Below, one piece after another: positions 871 to 20,718 of a DNA stretch of 64,000 nt (position 1 is its first letter; each line of letters opens with the position of its first letter). The stretch covers positions 1 through 64,000 of the forward strand of contig QPMI01000417.1 in the NCBI GenBank assembly GCA_004431415.1, given 5' to 3'. The notes under the pieces are model-generated. The model did not search any database and had not been told where the DNA came from. It worked only from the letters and a program-made list of their open reading frames with translations. A program made the position numbers and the translations under genes. Source of the DNA: Cyanophora paradoxa CCMP329. Taxonomy: Eukaryota > Plantae > Glaucophyta.

Positions 871-1129
871 ATCGGGCTGTTGCGCTGTACCCCTCGTACG
901 TGGCCCTCTCTCAGCCTGATTCTCAGGTACCGGCGTACCGCCGTACCGGTCCGATCCGGTCGCCGTGCCGCAGACTGGCCCGCACGGCCCCGCAGACTGG
1001 GCCGCAGTGCCCCACTGTGCCCGGCGGCCGCGGCCGGCGCGCGGCCGCCGGCGCCGGCGCCCGGCGCCCGCCGGCGCCGCGGCGGGCCGCCGGCCCGCCG
1101 CTCGATCGCGATTCGCGAGTCATTCGCGA

Positions 1130-1570
1130 CTTGGATTCGCGAGTCGCGGCCCTCGCGGGACTCGCGGCTAGCGCTCGCCGCTCGACGCGGATCGATCCGG
1201 ATCGACTCCGATCGAGTCGACTCCGGAGTCCGGAGTCCGGAGTCCGGAGTCCGGACTCCGGATCCGGAGTCCGGAGAGTTAACTTGAACGTTTTAACGTT
1301 ATGATCCGATGATCAGTGTCATTCAGTGATCACTGGCCGGAGGCCCGGAGGTTCGGCGGAGACTCCGGAGAGTCAGTGGAGACTGGATTCCGGGCCAATT
1401 TCCGGGCCAATTTCCGGAAATCCGCGCGAAGTTCAACGGTACAAATTAACGTTAACGTTGAAGCTTCAGCTGCAGGTTCCAATTGCAATTTGCCAAGTTG
1501 CAACTTGCAACCGTCGCGTCCGGTACCGTCGACGTGGTATATATGGATATATATATACCCGGTATTATAC
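1130..1570. repeat. Palindrome-saturated intergenic tract including (AGTCCGG)n at ~1222-1277
   Basis: Runs of overlapping palindromic words: tccgga, gagtcgactc, gttaac, aacgtt, tgatca, ttgcaa, ggtacc. Confidence 0.8.
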
Positions 1571-1882
1571 CGCCGTAAATTAGTAAATTGGCCCGCGGCC
1601 GTAATTCCGCTATACTAGTACTGTCACATTATATTACTGCAGCTGCAGTGTAGGATGATACTATAGCTATAGCTAGGATCATACGTATTACGTACTAGGA
1701 GTCTTGGAATCCAGGATGGCTTAAATTGCCGCGCAGTAAAATTCGCCCTACCGGTACGTATACCGTAGACAGGTCCGTACTACGGTAGTCTCTCAAAAGT
1801 TGCCATAAAAAAATTGCCATGATCAAAACAAAATGCCGAATTCGCCCAAAACCAGAATTGCCGTGGCCGGGCTGCGCATGCT

Positions 1883-2407
1883 CGGTCTGGTTCGCTTCTC
1901 CGAGGCTCGTCTCTTTTCGATCTAGATCATCGGATCTGCGCATGCATCTGTGCCTTTCCTCTTTTATTGTCGATTTCATTTGGCTTTTTGTCTTTTCGAA
2001 ATTCGTGCTCCTGTCTTAGTTATTTTGTCTCTTTGTCCCTGTGCATGTGCCCCCGCCGCCCCCCGGGCCCCTGGGCAGTGGCCCAGTGGGCAGCCCCCGC
2101 ATGCAGTGCTGTTGTCTAGAGACTCAGGCTGTACATGCGCATGCATATGTGGCCGGTAATTCGCCAAAAAAAAGAATTGCCGTGGCGATAAATTGACGGC
2201 TTTTTTTTTGGTGAATTATAATTACCGGCCACAGTCTCTAGACACCAGCACTGCGGGGGCTGCCCAGGGGGCATAAAGACAAAAAAGCAAAATAACTAAG
2301 ACAAGAGCACGAAGAAAGATAAGACAAAGAGCCAAAATCGACAATAAAAAAGAAAAGACACAGAGCTCGAGACAGATCGAGAAGAGACGAGAAATCGAAC
2401 AGATCTA
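1883..2407. repeat. Long imperfect inverted repeat (foldback), arms ~1883-2183 and ~2196-2407; probable transposon-end relic
   Basis: Reverse complement of 2196-2391 aligns colinearly with 1906-2183 (e.g. ttttattgtcgattt, ttcgtgctc.tgtcttagttattttg, tgtctagagact, gtggccggtaatt). Confidence 0.85.
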
Positions 2408-2948
2408 GGGACAGAGGATGACTGACACGAAGAAGAGCCAGAGCTAGAGATACCATCAATATCGGAAGGAATTACATCACTAAGAAGCGGAGGACAAATT
2501 TGAGAAAGATAAATAACAGGAAGCAGACAAGTAAGAGGAACAACAAGACGACGCGGAGGCGGAGGCGAAGCAGGACGACGCGAAAGGGCAGAGCTACGGC
2601 ACAAGGTCGAGGAGGACACAGGAGGCGGAGCAGGCGGATCAAGAGCAGGCAAAAGGACAGTCAAAGGAATCACTAAAGCCGACCGGGGTCGAGACGGGCA
2701 GTCGAACTGCAAACGACGGCGAACAACAGGTCGAGCATGAGGACTATAGCTAGTATTGAAACTAACTCTAGCATCAACACTACGATCAGAATCCGAACTA
2801 GACCGAACTAAACTATAAGACGAAGTACGCCGGCGCCGGCGGGATACGACCAGCGAAGCAGAAGACGAAGGCAAAGGCGGCGGTCCGGTATCGGCAAATT
2901 GACGGCTTGACGACTTGAGAGACTTTAATATTGCCGACGAATTTGCCG

Positions 2949-3430
2949 TATACGTAGGCTCATCTCTCGACTTGATCTTGATTCTTGACGCCGCAAGTTG
3001 CCCGCAACTTGCATGCCCGCAAGTTGACTCAGTGACGGCTTATAATTAAATTGCTGCAGTGCCGGACGCGTGGTGTAAAATTGCCGAATTCGAATATATA
3101 TCATAGTATTCGCCCACTAGTACAGTAGTAGTACTGGGCCATGGCCACAACCCCGGCCCGCGGGACCGCGGCCCCGCGACTCGGGGCCGCGGCCCGCGAG
3201 GGCCGCGACAGCTTCTCGGGAATCCAATATTAATATTAATGATCCAGCTACGTATACTTGGGTAGTATTTGCATTGCATACGCGAGCTCCACCCGGCCCC
3301 GTCCGATGTCAGACTCCACGTGCACCGGTATATACGTAGATCTAGATCTGAGATCTAGAAAGGCGCTTACTAGTTAGTCCCGTATACGTACACGCCGTGA
3401 CATATACGTAGGCTCATCTCTCGACTTGAT
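2949..3430 (+). repeat. 28-bp exact direct repeat (2949-2976 and 3403-3430)
   Basis: tatacgtaggctcatctctcgacttgat occurs at both positions. Confidence 0.9.
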
Positions 3431-3801
3431 ACTTAACGGACGTCGGACGCTACGCCGTACGCGTAGTACGTTTCTATTCCCAGCCCAGCCGTACTTATAT
3501 TCAATGATTGTCTCGGTGATAGCCTAGTAGGCTCGCGATCGCTACGAAATTGAAGACAAGGCGAAGACATCACAAGCTTAATATAAGAAGGAGGACGCAA
3601 GGCGCAAGGCCCGGAGGGGGGCGCAAGGGAGAGCAAAGGGAAAGAAGCACGGTAACCTCTGGGACTCTGGTCGTCGCTAGCGCTGCCGTGCCGGCGCAGC
3701 TGAGTTCGGAGATCTAGAGGCTAGCGGAGAGGACCGGCCGCGGGCTCCGAGGCGTTACCGATGGACCGGGATATCGGTGGATGATGACGATATCGATGGC
3801 G

Positions 3802-6800
3802 TTAATCGCTGTCATCAAGCACAATGACTTCTGGAGCCTTGGTTGCAACTGCAGCTGCTGTTGCAGCCGGCGGCGGCGCTGCCGGCGGCTGGCCATGGCC
3901 CGTTTGTGTCCGGTTCCGACGCTTGACGTGAGAAATGCCGCCGCAGCGGCCGCGAACAGAGGGGCCGCCGGTGTGCGACCCGCGTGCGCTGCCGCTGGAT
4001 CCGTTCGGTGCTCCTGACGTGCCGACGTCGGACTCCTTGCCCCCCCCGCTGCTGCTGGACGGGCCGGCACCGCCACCGGCACCGGAGCTGCCGCCGGGGG
4101 CGGGGGCGGGGCCCCCGCTCGAGCTCGCGGCCGCCGTGCCGGCGGTCGTTCGAGGCCGCCTCTCCTCCCAGGTCCCTTCGACGTCTGAGCTGCTCGGCCC
4201 GGCTCGCTTCTTCTCCGCGCCGCTGAGGCCTGGGACCCGAACGCTGCTGCTGCTGCCGCTGGAGGGGCCGGCGCCGGCTGCAGGGCTCCCGTTCCCGCTG
4301 GCGAGCTCATTGCTTAAGCTTCTGCCGGGGACTGCCTTTCCCTTCTCCGCCCTCGCCCGCTTCGAATCCGGGGGCTGCTCGGCGGGGCCCTCCGAGGGAT
4401 GCTTGCCGCGCGCGACTAGTACTGGCCCCGCGGGCTCATGATCACCGATCGACACGCCGTCGTCGTCCCGCCCGCGACCGTCGCCGCCTTCCTCGAGCCC
4501 TTCCGCCTCGTCTGAAGAGTCGGCGTCGTTCTGCACGCAGGGCGAGCGCGTCGGGTCAGGTCAGAGGCAGAGCCTGAAATCGAACAGCGGGCGCATAGCT
4601 GCGCACTGCGGTTGCCTCGGCCTGAGCGAGGGCGGCGTTGGCAGAGCTGGAGACGGAGGGCGCGGCCTCCTCCTCCTCCTCCTCCTCATCGCCCTCGCCG
4701 CCGCCGTCTTCAAGGCCCGCGCCGGCGAGCGCGGCTCGCCCGTCCCGTCCCAGCTTCTCCCGCACTTTCTCCCGCAGTTTGGCCCTGCTTACGGTCATGA
4801 ATTCGGTTCGCGACCATCAGTGTTCGCTCCATCGATATGCGCATGCGCGCGCACCGGCTCTGGTCGTCCGCATACACGTCAGCGATGGTCTTGACGAAGG
4901 CTGCGATTTGATCCAGGGCGCCGCTCCACGCCGCCTCGGCCGCCGCGAAGTCCAAGTTTGCCAGCACCTGCCGCCCTGGATAAGGGGCCATGTCCGGCAG
5001 AGGATAAGGGGAGGCTAAAGGACGAACCTCCGAGCAGAAATTCTCGATAGTGTTCTGGAAAGCGCGGAGGACCTGGAAGTTTGCATGTGCGCGGACGTTT
5101 GTTAACCAGCGATTACTTCAGTTTAGATCGCGCTTGAGATTGACGTGCGCACGTCGCCAAGCTTCTTGCCGCAGCTCACCGCAAAGCTTTGAAAGGAGTT
5201 TTGTATGGCGCCCCTGGTCTCTGCGATTTGCGACCTGCGTGATGCAAAGAACCTTCGGCAATGCAAGCACGACGCACGGTCATAGCCCGTCTTCGCGATC
5301 TCTGGTGCTGCGCTGGCGACCTTTGCCTTCGCAGCGGGCCACTCTGAACTCTGCCGTGCAGGTCAGAACCAGCCAAAATTAAACCGAAAGAGCTAGACCG
5401 GGGCTCCTTGAACGCGCCCTGGCATCGACGCCCTTTACTGCGCGCTTTAGAGCCGGTTCCATCTCCTTCTCCGCGCTGACGGGGCGACTCAGACGGCGCT
5501 GACGCCGACAGGGCTCGAGCGCGCAGACGCGTACCCCGTAAAGGCAAAGTCACATAGATTCCCGGCGCCGAGCGACTGGATGAATTCCACCGTCGCCCGC
5601 ACGCGCTGGTCCAGCTCCCTGCGAGAGAAATTCGGACGGAGCGCGAAATTCGGAAATTCGTCGCGGTTCGGGAGCGCTCGCCTGCTTAGAAAGCAGAGGA
5701 CGATGCCGAGGACCTTGAAGGCCTCCTCGCTGCCCGGGCGGCCCTCCCAGGACGGGGGCATCTCCTTCCGCATTCCCAGCAGCCTGATCTTGATCATGTC
5801 GATTCGCTGCGAGCGTGAACCCCGATCGGGAGCTGAGAACAGATGAAAGCTCAAGCCTGCGACGTGAGAGGAAGGGTCACCTCTCCGAAAAGGCTCCGGC
5901 GAAGGCTCGTCTCCTCCAGAAACTTGTGCATCTCGACTCGCAGCTGCAGCGCCCCATCTGCACGAGAGATGAGCGACCTAAGGCTTTGAGGAAGAGTATT
6001 GTACAACAAATTTATTCATATAATGTAATTATAAAATTTACAGGTTCGTAAATATACGTATATGCCGGCGCCGCACCGTAAAGGGGCTCGAGGGCGCTCT
6101 TGCCGACCTCTCCAGGGACAAGCGGCTCCTTCGCCACCGCAGCGAAGAAGCCGGCAACGCGATAGCCGAAAGCTTTCTGCAGCCTCATCTGCACGGACCT
6201 CGTTACACTACGCACCCGCTTAGCTTATGGGTGGGGCTGCATGGACGCACGGCAGTCTGCGCGGCGGCGCAGTTGGGGATTTGTCGGCCCAACGTTCTGT
6301 CCACGAGGCCCGTGCCTTTCTTGCCCGCCTCGCGCCAGTTCTCGAGCCCGCTAGTCTCTTGCAGCGCGGTCCGCGTTTTCCTCAGCGACTTCGCGCACTG
6401 CTTCAGGTGATCCTCCAGCAGCTTGCGCGCGTCCGGCGACAGCCGCTTGACCTCCATAACCTGATTCCGAATGAGCGAGATGCGGGGGCATAAGCGACTC
6501 GGTTTTGGAGAAGGACGTACCAGGCGGTTGGACGTGGCGTAGAAGCAGAGTACTCCCCCGAGGGTCTCCAGAGAGATGGGGAGCAGCTGGGCGCGCAGGC
6601 TCGCCGCCCGCACATCCCGCAGCTGGTGCAGCAGCTGCTTGAAGTCGGGCCGCTCGCCCGATCCCTTCCGACTCCAGTTCGGCCTCGCGAAAATCGGCGC
6701 AAACCGGACGCGGCGCATCCTGCCGGAAGACGCACGAGCACCGTGAGAATCAAGCGCGAGCGCGAGCAAGTGAGGACAGAGTCTCTCGAGAGCGCGCGCG

Positions 6801-9800
6801 CACGTTCGCTCGACGGTCTCGACACGGGCCGGCTCGGCCTCGTTCTGCAGCGCGATGGCGACGACGTCTTGGAGCTGCGTGCGGAACTGGCGCTTCTTGG
6901 CCACCTCCATGGACTTCAAGAACTTCTCGGCGGAGGGAATGTCGTCGCCCCGCCCGAAGTCGCCGTCCTTGACCAGCAGAATCTGCGTAGAAGCGTAAAG
7001 AAGCTTAAGCCGCGGCTGCGGGGCGCCCGTCCCGTTCCCACCTGGATGCGCGAGCTCGCGGCTATGATCGGGGCGAAGACATCGGGGACGACCTCCCTCG
7101 GCAGGCTGTCCTCGTCTTTGCTCGAGCAGAGCTGCGCATGCGCGTAAACGTTCATGGCCTGAGTGGACGGCGGCACAATCCCGGGCGCCCCGTGCGATCG
7201 TGGACGAACCATGAGGACGGCATCGATGCTGCGCTCGCCCTCTCGGAACGCCGACATGACGATTCCGTTGTGCGCGTGTCCCGGCTCGCTCTGCAGCCCC
7301 GGCAGATCTTTCTGCAGCGCGCGCGTAGTATTTGTGGTCAGCGAGATGCAGGCATGCAGGACACGCGACGGCTGGAGCTCACGAAGCGAAAGTTGTGCAG
7401 GTCGGTGGAGGGCAAATGTAGGCGGATCGCGCGCAGCATGCCCCAGTGCGAGACGGCGCCGTCCTGCAGGGCGTCAGATCTGCTAGACTATAGCTAGGAA
7501 CGAATTGAGATGCAAGTACCTTGCGCTCCGTCGCATGAATGATGAGCATGCGGCGTACCTGCACGTGCATACAATCGGTCGCAACTAGAGGGGCGCGGCC
7601 ACAGCGGACCGGCTCTGCGGGGCGGGTCTGCACCTCTTTCCTGATGTCCTCAGCGGTGTTCGCGAAGATGCGGTGGCGCGTCGTCCGCCCCAGAAGCGGC
7701 TTGTACACCTCTAGAATCTCAATTTGGTCCTCGCTGCGATTGCGAGAGCTTCAGGCATGGGCGCGCTCGAGCTCGAGCCAGGTCGCAGAGAGCAGCACCT
7801 GTACTTCTCCAGCTCGTGCACCGCATCGTTCTGCTCGTCTTCTTCGTACAAGGCGTCGTCGCTGGGCATGTCCTCTTTGTCTCCACCGCCAGCATCCGCG
7901 CCGAGGCCCGTGCACGCCTTGACCCTGCATTACGCCTCGCACGCTCAGCGTCGATCGATATCGCGATCGCTATCGGACGAAGTAAATATTTATGAATCGA
8001 GCGGACCAGCCTAGGCTTGAAACGCTATGCTTGAAGGCTTCTCGCTGTGCAAGCGGCTCAGAACAAGTAGGGGCAGCTGCGACTGCGGATTCGAAGCCGG
8101 CAGCACCTGCTCGGAAGGCAATGCCTGCACGGCCCCGAGATCGCGCCGGACCCTTTCGAAGTGGGGCTCGAGCTGCGCGGAATCCGAATCAAGCTTAAGG
8201 GGCGGAATCTCGAACTGAGAATTAGAGGGGCGGCGCCTCGGTGCTGGGGCGCCAGTCGAACTCGAGCATAGGCGACTCGCAGGAAGCCGGGTCGAAGAAG
8301 AGGAGTTCGACGGGGACGGCCGAAGTGGCGCCCAGCGGCTGCACGGCGCGACGCGTAAGATAGCGAAGCCAACATCGAGGCGGGACGGAGGGCCGGGGCG
8401 CCTGCTGGCGCGCCTGCGAGGGGAGGATGTCGCTGTTCCAGCGCGAGTCGCCGCCAAGCTCGCTCCCGCCAAGCGCCGCGTAGATCTCGCCCATGTCTTC
8501 GCTGCAGTCACGGCCCTTCGAGTCGACGACGCCCTCCGGGGGCAGCAGCTCGTGTGTCTGCGAAGCACGTGAGCTCGAGTACCCCGGTGTACATGTACAG
8601 CCAGGCAGGGGATCAGAGGCGCACGATGACTGTGGAGGGGGACGGCTTGACGCTGTGGGCGAGTCGGCACTGCTTGGCGTAGTCGGCGAAGACGCCGCGG
8701 GGCGGCATGAGCTCCACGATGAGGCTGGACAGCGTCGTTGACTTGCCGGCCTTCGACGGCGCCAGCTGCGGAGGCGTCGGCGGCGGGCGGCATGTGCGCG
8801 GGACTGACATTGCCGCGGCGCGCACGAGGTAAATGGAGGTCGTTTGGACTGTGGTCAGGCTCCTGTCGCGTTCAGCTATCTCCTGCTGGACCTTCGGAAG
8901 GGTTTATGATCAGGCGGGCTGACATGCGACGGGGTGCTCTAGGCTCAAGGGTGGGGCGGGGGGAAGGTTGGGTTGGGTTGGGTTGGGTTGGGGGGGTTGG
9001 AGGGGGATGAGCCAGGAGCAGGAGCAGGGAGAAGGGGGAGGCGGGAAAGGAGGGGCGGGGAGGGGGGGGGGGAAGGGGGGGGGCGAGCCAGGAGCAGGAG
9101 CAGGGGAGAGGGGGAGGCGAGGGGGGAGAGCGGGGGGCGGGGGACGGGGGAGGGAGGGGGGGGGGGAGCCAGGAGCAGGAGCAGGGAGGAGGGGGATGCG
9201 ATAGGATGGGGGCGAGAGGGAGGGGAAGGGCCGGGGGAGGAGGGGGGGGGCGGAGGGGGGGGGGGAGGGGCAGGGGGAGGGTGGAGGTGGGAAAACGCAA
9301 GGGAAAGGAGGTCGGTGGGTGGGGGACGAATGAGATGTACAGCAGGGAAAGGCAAATGGGAAAGAAATGGGGGACTAAGGGAAACGCGACATCGCGGGGA
9401 AAGGGAAAGAGGGGGGCAGCGGCGGGTGGGGGAACGGGGGAAGGGGGGGGCAGCGGCGGGTGGGAGGACAAGGCGGGTGGGAGGACAGTGGGAACCTGCT
9501 CAATGTGGGCATCTGAGATGAGAAGGGGGCGCTTAGGGTGCGTCCCTCCGGGCGCGGCCTTCCAGCGGTCCCGGGAGACCTCCTCCAGCCGGCATCGAGC
9601 GAGTTCCAGCTCGCTCCTGATCTTCGCCATGAGCTCGATCGAGCGCGGGTCGTCTCCAGGGGAGCCCGAGCGCCCCGCCGCGCAAATCGTCGGCCGCCGG
9701 CCTACGAAGAGCGAACAATAAGCCAGGAGCAGAGGCGGGGGGGACGGGTGGGGGGGGTGCGGGCCTGAAGAGGTGCCGGGAATCTCTGGCCGGACGAGAA

Positions 9801-11227
9801 GCCAGCGGACAGCGCGCGTGGTGCTTCGGGGCTCGTCGCGCCCTATCCAGACGTGTACGTCGTCCTTCCTTTCCTCGCAGGGGATCTTGAAATCGCGGAA
9901 GAAGTCCAAATGGTGGATATGGCTGCGAGACGGCAGCTCAGCGGGGTACACATACATCGGCAGGAGGGCGACGTACCCCTTCTTTCTGTTTTCGTAGATG
10001 AGGTGCGGTCTGAGCCGCGCCCCCGGCTCCCGTCCGATAGCAAAGAGCGTGAACTGGCAAAGATCAGAACGCCGTACCCCCCGTCTGGGTGCGGGGTACG
10101 CGAAACGCACGATGTCTCTCTCGAGCGAGGTCGGAGGCATCTCCTGGAAGCTCTGGACGAGTTCCTCGTCCTTCGCGGTGGTGGAAAACCTGGGTACGAC
10201 CGCCGTAAGACGCGCCGGTACCCCCCACAGCCCTACACGTGCGCACGGCACAATCTTGCAGATGGCAGATGCGAATTCACGCGGTGCCCGCTCCACCTGA
10301 GCCTCGACGAACTCTCCGAGCCTGCGCTGCGCAGACAGTGGCGCTCTGCAGCGATCGCGCTCGTGAGTGAGGAGGGCGCGAGAGACGAGCGGAAGAAAGC
10401 CGCATCTCACCTTGCAGCGGCGCCGATGGCGCCCTCCAGAGAAGTGTGTTCCTCGCAGACGAAGCGGAGACCAAAGAGGAAGGTGCTGACGCCGTTCCCG
10501 CGCTTCGCGGCCTTCGATTCCGCGGCCTCTGAGACCGCTTGCGGGGCGTACTCGGCGAACGCGCGCTCGGCTGGGCTCGGCTCGCGCCCCTGCAAGCGGC
10601 TGAGGCGGCGCGCAGCGCTCAAGAACGATAGCGAGGGAACCTGGATTGGGCACAACACGGCCATCGACTTGGCGATGGTCAGCGCCCGCTCGCGCGAGGC
10701 GAACGCGAAGGTGTTCGCGGCTGGCGCCGAAGAGCCCGACGGCGCGGTCCCAGCCTTGCCCGCGCGCTTTTCCTTGTTCTTCATCAACTCCTTTTCCACC
10801 TCTGAGGCCCAAGCGATCCCTTTACGACGCGCAAGTTCGGGGCGCGCGCGCGCGCGGCATGCTCACCCGCTTTCATCTTCGCGAAAGCGATGCATCCTTT
10901 CTTTTTCTTGAAGTGAAAGCTGCCGCGAGCAAACAGCGCATCCTCCGTCGGTTGCTTCCAGATCTCGCAGAGCTCTCGGAGAGAGACAGTGATGCGCCTG
11001 CGGCGGCTGACGACAGGCTGGCGCGGATCGAGAAGCTCGAAGCAGTCCTCGCTGACCAGGACGACGCGAACATCCTCCTTGCCGGTCCAGGGGAACGTAA
11101 AGTAATCGCCCGGCTCTAGCTGAGCGTGCCGGTAGACATCCCGGAAGCAGAGCGCCGAGCTCGCGCTGGCGCTGGCGCTGGCGCTAGCTGCTGGGCTCTT
11201 CGAGGGCGGCCCTGCTCTTCTTGACAT
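3802..11227 (-). CDS. Gene A: large multi-exon dynamin-superfamily GTPase (SLIP-GC/NUGGC-like) with RAMA-like N-terminus and C-terminal SIM-like motif
   Basis: ATG at 11227 (MSRRAGPP). Spliced Walker A TSIYL|LAPSKAGKSTTLSSLI (~8720-8765). G2 region ILPSQ|PLGATSAVPVEL. HWGMLRAIRLHLPSTDLHNFRF|KDLPGL gives G3 DxPG (~7294-7308). Helical region follows; last exon ends EVIVLDDSD-TAA at 3802. Confidence 0.75.
8950..9495. repeat. G-rich intron of gene A with three copies of gagccaggagcaggagcaggg among long G runs
   Basis: Copies at ~9008, ~9085 and ~9166, with a partial copy at ~9721 in the neighbouring intron; a (GGGTT)n run at ~8965-9000. Confidence 0.8.
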
Positions 11228-11666
11228 ACTTTGGAGCTTGAGCGTGCTCTACTTACGGTCTAGAAGCGCGTGGAGCTGCGCCCGCGAACTTCAGGCTCGC
11301 ACTCAACGTTCGCTTGGGGGGAGAACGCACTGTCTGGGCGTCCAGTGACATACGCCATCGCCTCCGAGCGCAAGGTCGCAAGCGCGAGCTTCGCCCGCTC
11401 GAGCTCCGGCCCGCTGGCTGAATCGAATTCTAATGGCTGGGGTCGCAGCTGTGCTACTGCCTTATAGAGCGCACTGCGTACTTCCGCGATGCTTCAGCGA
11501 TGCACGAAAGCGCTCAGCGATGCGAATGCTTGAAGCACGGTACCCCCCCACAATCGCCTGCCACGGCGCCTGGTGACCGGTGGGCGCACGCGAGCCCGCC
11601 GCATAGCTTCAGCAAAGAAGAGCCATCGGCCGGCGCTGAACGCGGGGAACGGCGGGAACGCCGGGA
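11228..11666. promoter_or_regulatory. Putative bidirectional promoter of the GTPase pair
   Basis: ~440 bp or less separates the divergent start codons. Inferred from geometry only. Confidence 0.45.
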
Positions 11667-13379
11667 ATGGTCCTGCCCGCCGTCGAGGTGCGGCCTTCGC
11701 ACCTCGTGAAGAAGAGGCTGCTTGAGATTGGCGACAAGGTGCGGCATCCTCCGCTTCAGCTTCCGTTCGAATCCAGCGCATGCGCAAGCGGCTCTAACGC
11801 TGTAGCTCGAGCCCGCGTGTGCCTAGCTATAGCGTCTATCATGCCGGGACGCATAGCGTGCCGTACAGCCCTGACGAATGCACACGCGCGCGGCCTGCAG
11901 GTTTGCGCGGAGGTCGATGGCATCGCAGATCTGAGCGACGACGCGGTGGCCGTCGTCTCGAGAGAAGCGAATATGGTCGTTTTGAGCTGGAAGGACTCCG
12001 CGGGCCAGCTCGCCGTCGGGGGAGTGAAGGCGCGTTTCCCGTTCTGATCTCGGACATCTCATCTCGAGCTCGCGTGGGCGCAGCGCTCACTCTCTCCGCC
12101 GCAGAACTTTGCGATGCAGCGGGGCGCCGATCTCTCGAGGCCCTGGCAGTCCGTGAAACTCGTGCGCACGGGCGAGACTCTGGACGCGCTGCGAACCCGC
12201 TACGTCGCGCTGGAGCAGCAGCGGGAGCAGCAGCAGGCGGCGGCGGCGGCAGCGGCGGCGGGAGCTTCGGGAGCCCTGGGCTCGCAGGCGCCCGCAGGCG
12301 AGGGCGCCTCGGGGTCCCTTAGCATCGTCGTCGCGGGCCCCTCCGCCGGCAGCGGGACGCCTCTACCCTCCCCGCCGCCCTCTGGCAAGGTACCCCCCCA
12401 CCCCGCCCCCCCCCCCCTTCGCTATCGCTTTCGCCGTTGCTGATGTTGCCCTCGCGCAGTCCGGCTTCAACGTAGCCCTCAAAGCCGGGAGCTACCAGAC
12501 CCAGGTACCCCCCTGCCCCTCCCCCTCCCCCTCCTCACTTCCTCCCCCCTCCCCCACCCCCACTCGGAGGAAGCCCACTCGCTCCCCCGCAGCCGCTGAG
12601 GCTACCGCCGCTGGCGCCGGACGAGGCGGAGTTCGCGAAAAAGCTGGAGGAGGCGATCTGGGAGCGGAAGAGGCGGGGGGGTACAGTCAGCGGCGTCGCC
12701 CAGCTCTGCACGCAGCTCCGCGGCGTCTCGGTCCACTTTCTTTCCACCGCTGAGAAGAACGTCTGCCCCGCCATCGCCCTCGCCATATGGTGCGCACCGC
12801 GCACCCGCGTGAGCGTACCCCCGCCGGTCTCACGTACCCCCCGCAGGCGAAAGCTGGACAAGAAAGAGGACCTGCGGTCGTTCTGCATCCACTCGCTCTC
12901 CAGGGAGCGCGAGAAGCACATGGAGAGCCTGAGGAAGCTCGGCCTGGACGAGCGGAGACCGGCATCCGTCGTGGGCATACTCGACAGGCACGTGCACGCC
13001 GGCGGCAGCGGAAACACCTCTGGGATCGCGGAGGCCAGCAGGTACCCCACCCCACCCGGCCGCGCGCGCCCCGCTTCGACGAGGCGTCATGTTCACGACC
13101 CCCGTCTGCAGGCTCTTCTGCTCTATTCTTAGCAACACGCACGCGCTCCGGATATCCCTTGCGAAGGTGCCGGCCCGCCCTGCCCGCGCGCGTCTTCCAC
13201 AGCCTCGCCTATAAATTGCGCAGATCGACAAGAAAGGGCTGGACGTCGAGACCTTCGGGGAGGACGGCGGCAGCGGCGGCGAGCAGCGCCGCAGCGTCCT
13301 CATCGCCTACGAGTACGGCATCCGCAACATCACGTTCTACGCCATCGTACCCTCCCGCTGTGCGACGCGCCTACCCCCC

Positions 13380-13413
<34 letters not shown>

Positions 13414-16400
13414 TCATCCGCGCGCTGCGAGCAGACGCGACCTTCCACAGCTCGCCCTGGCAGCTGCTACGGGTCTTCCAGAACTCTCTGCGTGCGCCTT
13501 CGTATAATTTCGGCCCAAATTCAAACCGCCTCCTGCCCCTCGCCCATCCGATTTGATCCGAGCTGCAGGTACGACCCCGGGACTTCTCTGCGGCGAGTCT
13601 CGCCCTGTCTTTCTCCAGGCGAGTCTCTCTCACCCAGGCCGTGTTTTCTTCCCCCCCCCTCCCCCCCCCCCCTTCCCGGCCCCCCGGCCCTCTGCCCCGC
13701 TTTTCCGTCCTTCTTCACGCCTTTCTAGGGTTGCTGACGCCCCAAGCGCAGTTCAACCCCGTCCCGGACTCCCGGCGGTGCCTGTGGAACGTGGACGAGG
13801 CAGGCTCAACCCTCCAGCGCTTGGAGTCCGGACTCGAAGACGTGCGTGCGGGGGCGGGCGCGCGCACTCCGCCCTCGATCCCACAGTCAACCCCCGCAGT
13901 TCCAAGAGAGGGTCCGCGACCCGCTGGCAGGGAGCCGTCGCTTCGTCGTGCAGCTCATCCTCGACCTCGTCTCTCTGGTCAAGAGGCTCGACGCCGTCCG
14001 CTTAGCCCGCAGCCAGGATGGCGCCGCGCAGGTGCGCGCTCTCGCTTCCACTCGATGCCTGGCTCCCCATGGACTCATAAGACCGCCTGACGACAGGTGA
14101 CCCTCGCCGGAAACCACATCAAGGAGGTGCCTACCCCGCGTTCGAGTTCTCCCTGGCTCATTCCTCACTTTCGCCCCTTCCGCAGCTCCTCCTTCGCCTG
14201 CAGCAGCGCTACGTCGAGTTCTGGAACGCGATCCAGTGGAACGTGGCCGTCGTGGGGTACACCGGCGCCGGTGCGCGCGCGCCCCCGACCCCGCTCGTCG
14301 TTGAAGCCTAACACGACCGCAGGCAAGTCCACGCTGCTCACGTCGGTCGTCCGCGACGGGCTCCCGACTCCAGAGGAGTTCCACGCGCTCATCGCGGGCC
14401 ATCCGCACCTGCTGGCGGACAAGGCTTCGTACCAGGCGCGGCCGCGCGGCTTTAGCTCATCTTTGTCCACCTCGCTATGAAGTTCGCGAACCAGGCCTTA
14501 CGTTCGAGTCTCCGCTCCGCGCAGAAGTACCTGCTCGTGCAGGGGCCCCCCCAGCTGGAGGGCAACCGCCTCGACAGCATCGTGAGGGGGCACGCGCACT
14601 TCGTTCTACTACTCGGCGTCAGCCCCCGCGCGCGCCGCTGATCCGCGCCCGCGCGCAGGCTCGTCGGCGCGCTGCGCGCCAGGGCCGGCGCTGAGGTTAT
14701 GGACCACGTGCACAAAGGGGACCTGCTCCCCGCGTTTTCGGCGGGAGCCACGTCGAGCGTGCCCCCGCGCATGGCGCGCCCTTCCCTGTTGAGCTTAAGT
14801 CTTCATGTTTACATCGCTTACTGTTGCTTTTCGCAGGTTTACAGTGTCGTTCCTTATCTTCGAATCGTCTTCAAGAGTCTCGAGGACTTCACAAAGGTAT
14901 CGTTTCTGCATATTTCTTCTCTCCGATCTGCCTTGGCCTCTTCATAGTTGACGCGCTCGCCTCCAGATTACGAAGGAGGCTTCCGCCTACCTGGAAATGT
15001 TCCACAGTAAGGAGACCCTGACGTCGAGGCAGCGCATGACGATCGAGGAGGCCCTGACCATGTCCGCCACCGGGAAATTCAGTTGTCATCTTCTAGTTCT
15101 AGAGCTCAAGCGTTGCGTTCGCAGGCTCGGCATGGAGGACCCCGTCGAGGGCGCGCGGGCCGAGGTGGCCGAGGACGCCCCCGACACGCTGGACGACCAC
15201 CTGTGGCGCATCCCGTGCGCCCCTGCAGCGGCCCTTTAAATTTCGCGCTTGGTTCGAGCTGCTTGGCTCGCCACCCGAGCGCTGACGTCGTTCGTTCGGT
15301 CCAGGCGGGGGTCGCTGGAGCTGCCCGAGGGCTTCAAGGACTTCAAGGAGGTGCTCGGCTGCACCGTCGACGTCGTCGTGTGGGGGCCCCGGCTGGAGGA
15401 CGCGGTGCACCTCGTTCACTCCCGATGCCGGCGCCGCGCGTCTGTTGGCCTTGACCTAAGCCGAAGCCGCGCAGATCCGGGCCATCCACGAGCACCTCGT
15501 CCTGCTGGCGACGCGCGGCAAGTGGTCCTTCTGGGGCCTCGTCGCCGCGACGGAGATCGGCCTGCCCTCGGAGAACCTGCGCCACCAGGAGATCGTGCGC
15601 CATATTAAATTCACGTTTTGCCACCCGCATCACTGCTGATCACGATTCCATCCCGTGTCAGATGGACTGCACGGGCATGAGCGGCTCGGACCGCATCCGC
15701 CACCACATCGGCACCACGGCGTTTCTGGAGGCGGGCACGTCGGGCCCGCACCTCGGCGCGCGCGCGGCAATGTGGGAGGCGCAGGGGAGCGCGCAGGTCC
15801 GTATACGTAGACGCCACCGCGCATCTCGCGATCGCGAAATCCGCCTACCACCAAAGGCCGATCGCGAGCCGCGCGCGCACAGCACGGGACCGACAAGGTT
15901 GTCGCGGCGGCCATCTCGACGGCCGAGCGGAGGCCGCCGCCGGCACTGGCGGCCATCCCCGCCGAGCAAGTACACGGCGACTTCGACGTGCTCGTCCACG
16001 TCATCCAGCGCAACTCCATCCACGTGGTGCGCTAAGAATTCGACTCGGCCGCCGCAGAGCTGCCGCTGTTTGACCGTTTTTTCGCGTCGCCAGGCGTGCA
16101 AGGAGGGGCTGCGGCCCGCCGTTCGCCGGCTGCTGGAGAGGCCGGAGGAGTGCAAGGCGCGCGCGGCTGCCGAGCGCGCGGCCGCGGCTGACGAGGCCGC
16201 GCGCGCCAGGTGATCGTGGTGGGGGACGTCGAGCGCGACATGGAGGGCGCGACAGAGGGCGCCGCCAGGACGCACTTCATAAACACCATCAAGACCGAGT
16301 GGCAGGTTCGCTTAGCAAATGATTTTTTACAGTTGCAATTAGAACATACATATGCATCATATGGATCGTCAGATTCCTTTGTCGTTGGTTTCTAATTCCG

Positions 16401-19288
16401 AATTTCGTCTGCAGGAAGGGCTCGTCAAGAGTGTGAACTCCGAGATGGGTGGCGACTCGAATGCGCAGGTTGTACGTTGGAGAAGGTCGGTTCTAAACAG
16501 CTATGCGGACGTGCAGGAACTCTTGACTAAACGAACGCGCAGGATGAAGGGAGCCAAAACAATCGAAGCGGCGTTCGTCAAGGCACGCCCCGATCACTAT
16601 CGGAAGGGCAAAGGCGAACGGCCCGACGTCGCGGTAAGATACCAGCTGCAGTACTCGTCAGATCTAGAACGTTGTCGGGCCAAGTTCTGAGCCTTGCCGC
16701 ACATGCACATGCACAGATGCTTGTCAACAAGATCCAAGCGCACCGCGAACAGGTGGGCTTCCCTAAGCCGTCGACTCCGGCGTCTGCCTCTCCTCCGAGG
16801 TCGCACATGCTTGGCTGACGTCGACTCCGATCTGGCCCTCTCCTCAGATCGTGGGGCGCCGCCTGGCCACGGTCGCCTGTAATACTCTGACGCGGGCCCT
16901 CCTTCCCTGCTGGGAGCGCATCTACATCGTGCGCGCGCGTCTTCCGCCTTTGGTTTCGACGATCGCGACAAAAAATAATGCAAATAGAGGCATAATATGA
17001 ACTAATCCACTATAGTAGTATAGTAAACGGGTATGATAACGATCATATAAAATACCAACAAGCAAAAATAAGGCAGGACTAACAATACCATGACTTATCA
17101 TTACCATTATAGAACCTTCTATTGACTGCCGAGCTTATCGGAATGCGGGCATCCAGATCGCCGAGATCCAGGGGCACTCGGCGGAGGAGAAGGCGGCGGT
17201 GTTCAACGCGCTGGAGGAGAAGGCCCGGCAGCTGGTGCAGCTCGCGCTGAGGCTCGACGCCCGCATCGACCGCAAGGTGGTGAAGGCAGCCGCGGCCAGC
17301 GCGGTCAGCGCTTTCTTATTTCTAGATCTCTTTTCCGCCTCTCTCCACGCGTGAAATCAAACGTGCAGGGCGCCGAGGCGACCGACGAGGACGACAGGTG
17401 CAGCGCGTTCAGCGGCAGCAGCGGCCGGCACGACGAGGACGAGGACGGGGAGGACTACCAGGACCTCGAGGAGGACGACGACGACATGGCCGAGGAAGAG
17501 GACGGCGCCGGCGCCGACCGCGACGCGGCGTCGTCTTCGCAGACGATCGAAGCGAACTTCGACGACAAGAAGCGGCCGCGGCTGAGCGAGGCCCTGCGCT
17601 GCGTTCTGAAGGAAGCCGTGAACCCGTGCCTCAAGAAGTGCACTGGGAAGCGCTTCCTTGCAGAGATCGTGCGCGGAGCCTCGGCCCCGCCTCGCCCGCA
17701 CCGCCTCTCCTAGGCCTGCCCATGACCTCTGCACTCCGCGCCGCGGCCGCCCGCAGGAAGCGATTCTCCTCTCGGGGGTCACGAACAAGATGCAGGCACT
17801 GAACAGGGCCTTGAAGAAGACGCCGGCGAGCTCGAGCAAGGTGGCGAAGGCGCTCGTCGGGCCCATGCTGGTCTGCTCGTCGGCCTTAATTCGTCCAAAG
17901 TTTCTCTGCCCGTGCCAATGTTCTCGCAGATCGCTATGCCAGTGCAGCTGAGGGAGAAACTGAATGAGCACATCGGGAAGCGGGCGCGGCCTCCTACCCC
18001 TATTCACCTTCTATGCTGCCGGCCTCCCACCGCTTTCTAATCGCCTCGACCGCAGTTCTTCGATTCTCTTTTCAGTGAACTCGAGGAGAAACACCTCTTC
18101 CGCAAGGCCCCCACCCCCGCCTCGGAGTCAGACTCGGGGCGCTCGCGCACCACCGCCCTCCGCGACGCCATCATCGACTCCGAATTTCGGTCCGAATTTC
18201 GGAAAAATCCGCGCCACGGCCGCGCGCGCGCGCGCGCTGCCTCGATCTGATCCCGGCGCGCGCGCAGGGACGGGCGCTCGCAGCTGCGCGAGAGGCAGGA
18301 CGGCGTTCGCGAGCGCCTCGCCGGCTTTGTGCCCAGTTTGGTGACGGAGCTCGACGAGATGGCGTGCACTGCGATCTTGCGCTTCAAATTTCCCGTTACC
18401 CAAGCTGAGAGCTCGACCGCAGCTCGACGAGCGCATTGGCAATATCGAAGAGAAAATCAAGGGGAAGGCGCGTGCGATGCGTGTGAATCCCTTTCGTCGG
18501 GCCGCTTGGAAAACTAACGTCGCATTTCCACAGCCTCTTCAGAAGAAACTGGACTTCCTGGCGAAGCAGGCACGGCCGATCGCAGTCGCGATCAAGGACA
18601 GAATCCGGAACCGAATGGAGGTGCGCGGGGCCCATTAACGAGGCCCCCATACTCTGCTTCCATATATGTCTCGGCTAATCACGCTTAATTTTCCCGCAGG
18701 TGTTTCGACATGAAGTCGCCATGGTGCAGAACACGATACCGCAGGTTTGCTCTCACCTAGCTGTATGTATCATGCCTAGCTGAGATTACACACCCGCGCC
18801 CGCCCCGCCCCGCCCCGCCCGCAGTTCCTGATGGACGGTGCGGAGAGCCTGCGGCGGTTCCAGGCGGAGGACCTGGCGAAGATGAGCACGGAGGCGGCGA
18901 AGAAGGCGCTGGCGGAGGCGTCCGGCGTCGCCGTCGCCGCGATGAGGGAGGCCGTCGAGCGCTTCGGCGGCCGCCCCGAGTGGATGTGCGCCCATCCAAC
19001 GACTTCGACGACTTCTAACTACGTATTAATCTTTGTGTATCGCAGGGCCGAGCTGAGGAGGGCCGTCAAGGACCTTCCCGAGCGGCTGCGGGCGGAGCTG
19101 GGGCGCGGGGTACCATCGCTCTTTAGAGTCGACGGGCCGGAGCCGGACCCTCCGACCTCTGCGGCCGGGCCCAGCGGAGCCGCGGACGCGGCCGCGGCGC
19201 CTGTCCAGGCTCCTGCGCCGTCGTCGTCGCAGCAGGCGAAGGAGAAGGCGAAGGGGCCAGCCACGTCGTCTTCGCCGCCGCCTCCGCC

Positions 19289-19331
<43 letters not shown>

Positions 19332-20718
19332 CAACAACAGAAGCAGAAGCGGCCGCGCGAAGGTGGAGCGGCGGGCGAGGAGCACCGGCCGCGGGGGCGG
19401 CCGATGCCCGCGCCCGCGCCCGCTGCCGCCAGCCAGAGAGAGCCCGGCCCTTCGAGCGGAGCGGGGGGCACGAGCGCCGCGGCCGCAGCCGAAGCGAGCC
19501 AGCGACGAGCGCCCTCCGGGTCCCCAACCTCGTCGCGATCGCGCCCCGCCGCCGGCGGTGGCGCCAGTGGCTCCTCCAGCGGCCAACGATCGTCGGAGCC
19601 GCCGCCGATCTTCGTCCCGCCGGCAGCAGCAGCTGCTGCAGGCGGATCAGGCGGAAAGAGGCCGGCCCCGGCCCCGGCGCAGCAGCCATCGGCGTCAGCG
19701 CCCGCCCCGTCTGCAGGCGCGGGGCGAAGGCCGGCCAACAGCCGCCAGGCGCCCGAAGCAGCATGCGCAGCTCTAGCGACCTCGCGGCCGTCCGCAGCCG
19801 CAGCCGCCCAGCAGCTGCCGCGCACGAGCTCTTCCGGATCTGCAGGACGAGCCTCCGCATCTCCTGCAAACTCCCCGCCACCGGTCCCAGCCGCTGCGGC
19901 CTCCGGAAGCGGCCTTAGAACGCGCGTTGCGGCCGCCCCGGCGGCGACCCAGCCAGGCTCCTCTTCTTCCCCCCCAGCCGACCCCGCCGAGCGCCCGCCG
20001 CCGCACAGGGGACCGGTCCCCGAGGTCCTCCCCGTACCCCGGCGGAACCCACCGCCCGGCGCCCCCCGCAGCAGCGGCGGCGGCGCCGCAGGGGGGAAGT
20101 CTTCCCGGGCTTCCGCCCCCGCCTCCTCCTCCGCCGCCGCCGACGCCGCGGCCCCCGCGTCGACGTCGACGTCGACGTCGGGCTCAGCGGGCGCCGGCGC
20201 GCCGCGGCGGGTCGGATCTCCGCCCGCGCAGCAGCCTTCGGCGGGCGGGAGCGAGGTGGCCACGCCTTCGCCATCCTCCGCGAAGCGGAAGCGCCGAATC
20301 GAGGACGACTACGACGAGGCCGACGCGGCGGATGAGGAGGCCGCGAGGCGCCGCTCGGCCGGCGGCGGCGGCGGTGGCGGGCCGAGCCAGAGCCCGGGCG
20401 CGGGCCGGGGGCCCCTGGCTCCAAGGCCAGGACGGCGCCGGCCGCCCCGTCCGCCCCCAGCGGCGGCGGTCCGAGCTCGAGTCAGCGCCAAGGTCCCCTC
20501 CGGCCACGGCCGCGGCCGCGGGCTCGGGATCCGCACCGAGGCCCCGGGCGCCGGCGCCGGCGCCGGCGGCGGCCCCGCCCGCGGACCGCGAGCGGGAGCA
20601 GCTGGAGAGAGCGCTGGAGGAGTCGAAGCGGGAGGCGCGGGCGCGCGAGGAGCGGGAGCGCCGCGAGGAGGAGCGCCTGCTGCAGGAGGCCCTCCGCCGC
20701 TCCCTCGCAGAGCGCTAG
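11667..20718 (+). CDS. Gene B: second SLIP-GC/NUGGC-like dynamin-superfamily GTPase with RAMA-like N-terminus, long low-complexity tail and two UIM-like helices
   Basis: Walker A NVAVVGYTGAG|KSTLLTSVV split by an intron (14240-14350). G2 region DLLPAFSAGATSSVP (~14720-14765). FWGLVAATEIGLPSENLRHQEI|MDCTG gives a G3 variant (~15530-15673). Ends EQLERALEESKRE...ERLLQEALRRSLAER-stop at 20718; reaching this needs frameshift(s) at G/C runs near 20405-20500. Start may be at 11500. Confidence 0.75.
16968..17128 (-). pseudogene. nad4: NUMT: mitochondrial nad4 (NuoM) fragment inside an intron of gene B
   Basis: Abrupt AT-rich 160-bp island translating to QSIEGSIMVMISHGIVSPALFLLVGILYDRYHTRLLYYYSGLVHIMPLFALFF, the conserved SHG...LF..VG.LYDR..TR motif of ND4. 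Lies between donor gtgcgc (16929) and acceptor cag (17156). Confidence 0.92.

What the first reader, a model, noticed from the sequence alone, without database searches (positions are those of the whole stretch)
10930..12205. Both GTPases begin with a RAMA-like (modified-DNA reader) domain
Seen: A starts CFRDVYRHAQLEPGDYFTFPWTGKEDVRVVLVSEDCFEL...; spliced B starts PSHLVKKRLLEIGDKV...AVAVVSREANMV...NFAMQRGADLSRPWQSVKLVRTGETLDALRTRY. Known: RAMA domains (restriction-modification systems, MPND) follow L..L.....L.pG.....f...g....a.l..dG.i...W.sv...g..L..l and are linked to N6-methyladenine DNA reading. Inference: a RAMA-dynamin-like GTPase fusion could discriminate DNA by methylation state, loosely like McrB. 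I know of no described example. The match is by eye, and A lacks the conserved Trp.
Basis: partly seen in the sequence, partly recalled or inferred. Interest (0 to 1): 0.75.

Follow-up and report, generated by a model that had tools for sequence, protein, structure and literature searches.

The report
Algal dynamins with chromatin-type front ends
Two neighbouring, expressed genes of the alga Cyanophora encode very divergent, predicted dynamin-type enzymes; one likely starts with a generic DNA-binding (SAND/RAMA-type) domain that would take it to chromatin, but reading methylated adenine is unlikely because this alga has almost none.

Summary
The two genes are real. They lie head-to-head, are spliced in RNA contigs of two studies, and belong to Cyanophora paradoxa. 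Their NTPase cores are related to each other and to haptophyte proteins whose predicted fold is dynamin-superfamily.

The RAMA claim holds weakly for B only. RAMA is the only Pfam hit of one B exon piece (E 0.1, 13 bits, cut-off 35). Spliced B beats 150 of 150 shuffles on a bacterial RAMA profile but scores far below typical RAMA domains. A is not separable from decoys, and its fold model is uninformative.

The 6mA idea is weak. Solved RAMA domains contact only the DNA backbone, and C. paradoxa lacks AMT1 and has background 6mA. B also has weak OTU-like and UIM-like segments, and several relatives carry OTU-like domains.

Best reading: soluble, ubiquitin-linked dynamin-type NTPases tethered to chromatin without regard to methylation (0.45). 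Bold reading: a sensor of foreign 6mA DNA in a host that lacks it (0.10). I found no paper on the fusion. An unchecked earlier scan note reports a similar reader + dynamin-type + pseudo-OTU layout in another protist.

The parts
3802..11536 (-). Gene A: 33 coding introns plus one 5'-UTR intron, 1554 aa. Layout: N-terminal domain, unassigned middle domain, dynamin-type NTPase, helical region, disordered tail
   Evidence: One 5232-nt RNA contig. 14 introns shown as RNA joints; 20 inferred, with a summed length (1849 nt) equal to what the contig requires. EukProt model P0002.
10868..11152 (-). A N-terminal domain (residues about 26-120); RAMA-like by eye only
   Evidence: Single exon. No significant RAMA score. 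AF2 single-sequence model, mean pLDDT 46, helix-4 strands-2 helices-strand order. No fold match.
6900..8891 (-). A dynamin-type NTPase domain: P-loop at about 8765-8740 with Ala at the first Gly position, G2 Thr, DxxG, non-canonical G4
   Evidence: 50 bits (P 9e-18) against a profile of 5 haptophyte relatives; motif table; exons here inferred and length-checked.
11537..11552 (.). 16-nt gap between the 5' ends of the two divergent transcript contigs; likely a shared bidirectional promoter region
   Evidence: Contig ends at 11536 and 11553 in run X1, and 11505 and 11557 in X5. Contigs do not show true start sites.
11553..20718 (+). Gene B, about 1,900 aa estimated. Layout: SAND/RAMA-like domain, linker, OTU-like segment, dynamin-type NTPase, helical region, disordered tail, UIM-like repeats
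   Evidence: RNA contigs of 4596 and 1318 nt. 13 of the first 14 introns shown as joints. Later introns inferred only to 15661; 15730-19358 not fully modelled.
11688..12206 (+). B N-terminal SAND/RAMA-like domain (residues about 8-101), in exons 11688-11738, 11901-12029 and 12105-12206; Trp81 at 12144-12146
   Evidence: Pfam RAMA E 0.099 for the third piece; glocal z about 4; decoy ranks; ESM Atlas SAND cluster at rank 3, score 0.76, a lead only.
12740..13350 (+). B OTU-like segment, apparently without the catalytic Cys and His (by eye)
   Evidence: P 0.0045 against a 4-sequence profile of haptophyte OTU-like regions. hhalign beats 20 of 20 shuffles but at only 3% probability. No Pfam hit.
14186..16310 (+). 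B dynamin-type NTPase domain; canonical GxxxxGKS P-loop split by intron 14271-14322
   Evidence: 51 bits (P 6e-18) against the haptophyte profile; 22% identity to A over 344 columns, pairwise E 4e-10.
20584..20715 (+). B C-terminal UIM-like repeats, in frame only with the two extra bases seen in RNA contigs at 20411 and 20494
   Evidence: Only Pfam hits: UIM_2 E 0.089 and RAP80_UIM E 3.2, both below cut-off; insertions in 3 of 3 RNA runs; frames.

Best explanation
Genes A and B are spliced, expressed, head-to-head paralogues encoding very divergent, predicted dynamin-superfamily NTPases; B likely begins with a SAND/RAMA-fold domain that would bind DNA or nucleosomes through the backbone, regardless of methylation, and so likely tether a soluble, ubiquitin-linked NTPase to chromatin. 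Shown: transcription, splicing, homology of the cores, and the dynamin fold of a relative's model. Inferred: B's N-terminal fold, DNA binding, nuclear location, ubiquitin binding by the UIM-like and OTU-like parts, and NTP-driven oligomerisation. A's N-terminus may be a still more diverged copy of the same fold (about 35%).
For: - Splicing and expression.
- Core homology; the AF2 model of relative P0007 matches SynDLP, BDLP, Drp1, DLP1/2 and Mx, E 3e-8 to 1e-3.
- B N-terminus: Pfam RAMA sole hit; collinear end-to-end alignment with the first helix motif, Trp81 and the closing helix motif, z about 4; ESM SAND lead.
- CcrM's RAMA domain resembles SAND/PWWP and binds non-specifically (PMC6787082). 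MPND RAMA binds dsDNA and histones independently of 6mA (PMC9963953).
- Eukaryotic RAMA is often fused to deubiquitinases and chromatin readers (PMC4738411). Here B has OTU-like and UIM-like segments, and the relatives' profile hits OTU structures (E 0.001-0.003).
- No transmembrane helix in A or in B residues 1-796 (best 19-residue hydropathy 1.38 and 1.55).
- The host lacks AMT1 and real 6mA.
Against: - B's RAMA scores are far below true members: local 3.6-7 bits against 26 bits for MPND on a similar profile. Glocal scores are -4.9 and -2.1 against held-out medians of 40 and 62.
- Some decoys outscore B (3-5 of 796; decoy maxima 3.5 and 6.0 against 2.2). hhalign probability is 1.3%.
- B's N-domain has net charge only +1, and no Ser-x-Ser DNA-contact motif is evident.
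- None of the 5 haptophyte relatives has a Pfam RAMA hit.
- The OTU-like and UIM-like calls are sub-threshold.
- The dynamin fold was shown on a stand-in, not on A or B.
- Most dynamin-superfamily proteins act on membranes.
Confidence: 0.45

Rival explanations
1. The N-terminal resemblances are chance or belong to another small beta-rich fold. A and B are orphan dynamin-type proteins acting on membranes or in the cytosol, with no DNA role.
For: A is within the decoy range. B never reaches a library-wide threshold and hhalign probability is about 1%. The A and B N-termini are not alike. Relatives have no RAMA hit. The closest solved folds are membrane remodellers.
Against: Three methods point B to the same fold group (Pfam RAMA, ESM SAND, collinear glocal alignment), although the first two used the same exon piece. 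No TM helix was found. Ubiquitin-type modules co-occur.
Confidence: 0.3
2. Non-self DNA sensor: in a host with no genomic 6mA, B's RAMA-like domain would recognise 6mA-rich viral or bacterial DNA and trigger an Mx/DynA-like dynamin defence response.
For: The host lacks AMT1 and 6mA, which would make 6mA a clean foreign mark. MPND RAMA was 6mA-selective in one pull-down. Mx-like dynamin proteins are widespread in eukaryotes, and DSP clades are shared with giant viruses (PMC11789081). Extreme divergence (only 1 other hit at E<=0.001 among 1.84 billion representatives) and varied N-terminal domains among relatives fit fast-evolving defence genes.
Against: Both solved RAMA-DNA complexes show no base contacts, and 6mA did not raise MPND binding. 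B's RAMA membership is unproven. PADLOC gave only short weak hits (E>=7e-4) around the P-loop for relatives and none for A. Both genes are expressed in ordinary culture runs.
Confidence: 0.1
3. Reader of the host's own 6mA epigenetic mark.
For: C. paradoxa encodes a METTL4. RAMA was proposed as a 6mA reader.
Against: C. paradoxa is one of 3 AMT1-lacking negative controls among 18 species, with background 6mA and no ApT strand symmetry (Pearson 0.002).
Confidence: 0.03

Closest known systems
RAMA domain (PF18755): MPND (PDB 7YDT/7YDW) and the CcrM C-terminal domain (6PBD)
   Same: B has the same order of motifs (first helix + 'G' turn, strands, helix, Trp strand, closing L..LR helix) and the Trp. 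RAMA beside ubiquitin-system domains is the usual eukaryotic theme.
   Different: Scores are far below the family cut-off, there is no clear Ser-x-Ser motif, and A lacks the Trp. I found no RAMA-dynamin fusion in the papers searched.
SAND / PWWP fold DNA-binding domains (and plant TDBD, recalled, not tested with a profile)
   Same: CcrM's RAMA resembles SAND (PMC6787082). B's third exon draws a SAND cluster in ESM Atlas (0.76).
   Different: No Pfam SAND or TDBD hit, and no PDB SAND sequence hit.
Dynamin superfamily: SynDLP (7ZW6), BDLP (2J69), Campylobacter DLP1/2 pair (5OXF), Drp1, Mx
   Same: G domain with G1, G2 Thr and DxxG followed by long helical bundles; fold match of the relative's model. 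The genes are paired, as DLP1/2 are.
   Different: 9-13% identity, non-canonical G4, no TM helix found, extra N-terminal modules and long disordered tails. A has no Pfam hit at all.
NUGGC / SLIP-GC nuclear GTPase
   Same: A nuclear GTPase tied to genome stability (as cited in PMC12107551). The Trp-containing strand before DxxG resembles it (recalled, not tested).
   Different: No NUGGC sequence appeared in any search; orthology untested.
Haptophyte OTU-like + dynamin-type proteins (P0004 KAL3929504.1, P0007-P0010)
   Same: Closest detectable relatives of the NTPase core; an OTU-like region lies before the core in P0004 and P0008-P0010 (partly by eye).
   Different: None has a RAMA hit; P0009 has EF-hands.
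McrB / RAMA-McrB fusions
   Same: A putative DNA-binding module joined to an NTPase.
   Different: McrB is AAA+; these are dynamin-fold. No nuclease domain was detected in either protein.

Membership tests
RAMA (PF18755), protein B | Profile score at or above the curated cut-off (35.2 bits) | tested here: inconclusive
   Only single exon pieces could be scanned. The best piece gave 13 bits, E 0.099, sole hit. Home-made bacterial profiles give 3.6-7 bits local and contain no eukaryotic RAMA.
RAMA (PF18755), protein B | Conserved Trp (CcrM W332, MPND W135) in the C-terminal strand | tested here: met
   W81 aligns to the profile's Trp.
RAMA (PF18755), protein B | Ser-x-Ser/His DNA-contact motif (MPND S113/S115, CcrM S315/H317) | tested here: inconclusive
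   Alignment is gapped and unstable there.
RAMA (PF18755), protein B | SAND-like fold | not testable with these tools
   No database protein for spliced B was found, so it could not be folded.
RAMA (PF18755), protein A | Profile score at or above the cut-off | tested here: not met
   No hit although nearly the whole domain lies in one exon; within decoy range.
RAMA (PF18755), protein A | Conserved Trp | tested here: not met
   No Trp at that column.
RAMA (PF18755), protein A | SAND-like fold | tested here: inconclusive
6mA reader | Selective binding to 6mA DNA | not testable with these tools
   Literature is split for MPND; the host has background 6mA.
Dynamin superfamily | P-loop, G2 Thr and G3 DxxG | tested here: met
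   Motif table and profile alignments; A has Ala at the first Gly.
Dynamin superfamily | G4 (T/N)KxD for guanine specificity | tested here: not met
   Read by eye: no canonical G4 after the last core strands in A or in the five relatives; B's exons there are not fixed.
Dynamin superfamily | G domain plus helical bundle fold | tested here: met
   On stand-in P0007 only: 48 Foldseek matches at E<=0.001, and all listed rows are dynamin-superfamily.
Dynamin superfamily | Oligomerisation-stimulated GTPase activity and membrane remodelling | not testable with these tools
   Needs biochemistry.
OTU deubiquitinase (B middle segment) | Cys-His catalytic pair and Pfam OTU score | tested here: inconclusive
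   No Pfam hit; P 0.0045 against relatives' OTU-like regions; catalytic residues look replaced, by eye.
McrB-like AAA+ | AAA+ fold | tested here: not met
   The relative's model matches dynamins, not AAA+.

The most novel reading that the evidence does not exclude
A eukaryote that has lost its own DNA 6mA keeps a co-regulated pair of RAMA-tipped dynamin-type NTPases that treat adenine-methylated DNA as foreign. They would bind incoming giant-virus or bacterial DNA, assemble on it and recruit the ubiquitin system: a type IV restriction-like innate sensor built on a dynamin motor.
Probability: 0.1. Interest if true: 0.9.

Novelty: new variant of a known kind. Interest (0 to 1): 0.45.

Why it matters
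Dynamin-superfamily proteins are known as membrane remodellers and antiviral effectors. A protist branch carrying DNA/chromatin-type and ubiquitin-type modules would extend them to chromatin, where NUGGC is the one example I know of, and its mechanism is unclear. Because Cyanophora has almost no 6mA, B's domain also offers a clean test of the open question of whether RAMA domains read 6mA. Methylation-blind binding would support the structural view; selective binding would imply sensing of foreign DNA.

Tried and rejected
- No whole genome is held, so paralogues and other RAMA domains in the host were not counted. No further copy lies elsewhere in the window.
- The protein database gave only A's own model for the A N-terminus and nothing for B's exon-3 piece (proteins of 71-2000 aa). 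B's N-terminus therefore could not be folded or scanned whole.
- Sequence searches of the PDB with A and with the B piece gave only chance rows.
- AF2 of the A N-terminus was low-confidence, and its Foldseek and VIA searches were inconclusive. ESM Atlas for A gave unnamed viral clusters under 0.8.
- No relatives were confirmed in metagenome contigs for either N-terminus.
- No relatives of the GTPase relative P0003 were confirmed in GTDB or viral contigs. One of 301 sampled genomes gave a marginal 18-bit match with a stop inside, rejected.
- tblastn of the B piece against plasmids gave chance NRPS hits. A motif scan of viral contigs gave 4 chance loci.
- An alternative donor at 11976 in B was tested; it scores similarly on the RAMA profile but is not what the RNA shows.
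- I did not fold A's domain on a RAMA alignment, because the result would be circular.
- No complex prediction was run.
- No run was on record as RNA; the runs used are RNA by their spliced contigs.
- The TDBD literature search returned irrelevant papers.
- Rows dropped: 3 pattern hits that were not RAMA (cL044, cL048, cL099) before profile r2; two frameshifted L121 rows and members under 88 aa; L139 (unpublished genome G144) throughout.
Full report
**Setting.** The window is GC-rich, intron-dense eukaryotic DNA. The N-terminal exon of gene A retrieves one protein, the EukProt Cyanophora paradoxa model tig00020564_g11402.t1 (P0002).

**Gene structure.** Contigs from three runs of two studies skip introns that a DNA run does not skip (15 of 115 joints shown). 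A second lay with two runs resolved 10650-14420. Gene A is on the minus strand, covered by one 5232-nt contig from 11536 to at least 3500; its ATG is at 11227 and its first coding exon ends at 10867. Fourteen of its introns are shown by RNA. The 20 I inferred sum to exactly the 1849 nt the contig requires, giving 1554 aa. The public model uses an upstream ATG that the RNA shows to be a uORF, and by the length check it lacks 150 nt before the P-loop. Gene B is on the plus strand from 11553, with ATG at 11667. Thirteen of its first 14 introns are RNA joints, including the two inside the N-terminal domain (11739-11900 GT-AG; 12030-12104 GC-AG). The two transcript contigs end 16 nt apart.

**The NTPase.** A has no Pfam hit at all. 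A phmmer search of its core against 1.84 billion representatives found itself and one other protein (E 1.9e-4), a haptophyte sequence whose best Pfam hit is Dynamin_N (25.8 bits, cut-off 27). That led to five full-length relatives. A profile of those five scores A at 50 bits and B at 51 bits. A and B are 22% identical over the core. An AF2 model of relative P0007 (6-sequence alignment, mean pLDDT 61) gives 48 Foldseek matches at E<=0.001, and every listed row is dynamin-superfamily, led by SynDLP and BDLP. The best viral matches are giant-virus dynamins. G1, G2 and G3 are present; G4 looks non-canonical by eye, so 'GTPase' is likely but untested. No TM helix was found in A or in B 1-796.

**The RAMA claim.** Pfam could be run only on single exons. 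Of the six pieces, B's third exon piece gave RAMA as its sole hit (E 0.099, 13 bits against a cut-off of 35.2, profile positions 82-103 of 107). A's exon, which holds nearly the whole domain, gave no RAMA hit.

I then built RAMA profiles from bacterial loci, found with the Pfam model or with a DNA motif scan (37 and 60 non-redundant sequences). A similar 20-sequence profile finds CcrM (87 bits) and MPND (26 bits) in the PDB. Local scores were 7.0 and 3.6 bits for B and 0.9 and 3.1 for A.

End-to-end scoring aligned B collinearly, Trp included, at z about 4, with 0 of 150 shuffles as high on either profile. A scored z 1.3-1.7. On three further profiles B beat all 319 window decoys and all but 3-5 of 796 bacterial decoys, whereas A was matched by 4-22 and 34-78 of them. 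Held-out true RAMA domains had medians of 40 and 62 bits; B scored -4.9 and -2.1. In one search, decoy maxima (3.5 and 6.0) exceeded B's 2.2 on one profile. hhalign gave 1.3% for B and 0.7-2% for A, with A's global alignment out of register.

ESM Atlas listed a SAND cluster third for B's exon piece (0.76, a lead only) and nothing useful for A. A's single-sequence model (pLDDT 46) has an order of helices and strands that is compatible with RAMA but found no match. The two N-termini are not detectably alike. My odds: B is SAND/RAMA-fold, about 60-65%; A, about 35%. The profiles held no eukaryotic RAMA, which limits sensitivity.

**Would it read 6mA?** RAMA was named as a candidate reader from its fusions, including fusions to McrB-like AAA+ domains and, in eukaryotes, to JAB deubiquitinases and chromatin modules (PMC4738411, passages). 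One pull-down found 6mA selectivity for MPND but not MYSM1 RAMA (PMC6591016, passages). The MPND-DNA structure shows backbone contacts only, no 6mA effect, and histone binding (PMC9963953, parts 1-2 of 5 read). CcrM's domain resembles SAND/PWWP and binds non-specifically (PMC6787082, passages). C. paradoxa is one of three AMT1-lacking negative controls among 18 species, with background 6mA; it does encode METTL4 (PMC12695648, section 7, passages and a search of 12 supplementary files). A host-mark reader is therefore very unlikely. A sensor of foreign methylated DNA remains possible but has no direct support.

**Other modules.** The relatives' profile hits OTU structures (E 0.001-0.003), and P0004 has a weak Pfam OTU hit (E 0.098). 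B 236-270 matches their OTU-like region weakly (P 0.0045; 0 of 20 shuffles as high); A's middle domain does not (15 of 20 shuffles as high). B's last 44 residues hit only UIM models, below cut-off, in the frame implied by two RNA-only bases. A ends in a SIM-like acidic-hydrophobic motif (recalled pattern, not tested). None of the five relatives has a RAMA hit.

**Mechanism.** The best-supported model is a soluble dynamin-type NTPase docked on chromatin by a methylation-blind SAND/RAMA-type domain and engaged with ubiquitylated substrates through UIM-like and inactive OTU-like parts, using NTP-driven self-assembly or pairing with its co-transcribed paralogue (0.45). Everything after 'spliced, expressed, dynamin-type core' is inference. 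The rivals are chance resemblance (0.30), foreign-6mA sensor (0.10) and host-6mA reader (0.03).

**Novelty.** 'RAMA domain' with 'dynamin' returned 0 papers. A search needing three of dynamin superfamily, Cyanophora, NUGGC and antiviral returned 0. The Mx/dynamin survey PMC11789081 does not mention Cyanophora, Prymnesium or NUGGC in its main text and says it omitted highly divergent GTPases (passages; supplements not searched). NUGGC is known to me from recall and from a passage in PMC12107551. An unchecked earlier scan note (e1-7215446) describes a PHD + SLIP-GC-like + pseudo-OTU protein in another protist; it is a lead, not evidence. Verdict: a real and apparently undescribed architecture, a new variant of a known kind, with the RAMA label unproven and the 6mA mechanism unlikely. 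Interest 0.45.

Noticed in passing
window 20411 and 20494: All three RNA runs have one extra C at each place relative to the assembly; this changes B's C-terminal frame to the UIM-like one. Probably assembly errors; the DNA run had no cover there.
   Followed up: partly
window 11228-11536 (-): A's spliced leader has two uORFs (16 and 15 codons); the public gene model starts at one of them.
   Followed up: partly
window 16960-17130: An AT-rich stretch inside gene B matches a high-depth sequence (depth over 300 in the DNA run, with 4 differences): a repeat or organellar-like insert.
   Followed up: no
window 8892-9495: Unusually long (604 nt) low-complexity intron in A, against the usual 50-90 nt.
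   Followed up: no
window 9700-10400 (-): A's middle domain (about residues 190-360) has no assignment by any test.
   Followed up: partly
window 1000-3500: AT-richer stretch with many short palindromic and tandem motifs downstream of gene A; not analysed.
   Followed up: no
window 23500-25500 (+): ORF pieces look like a tyrosine-kinase-like protein kinase gene.
   Followed up: no
P0004, P0008, P0009, P0010: Haptophyte-type proteins join OTU-like domains (some apparently inactive), EF-hands or a C-terminal Cys cluster to the same divergent dynamin-type core; apparently an unnamed family.
   Followed up: partly
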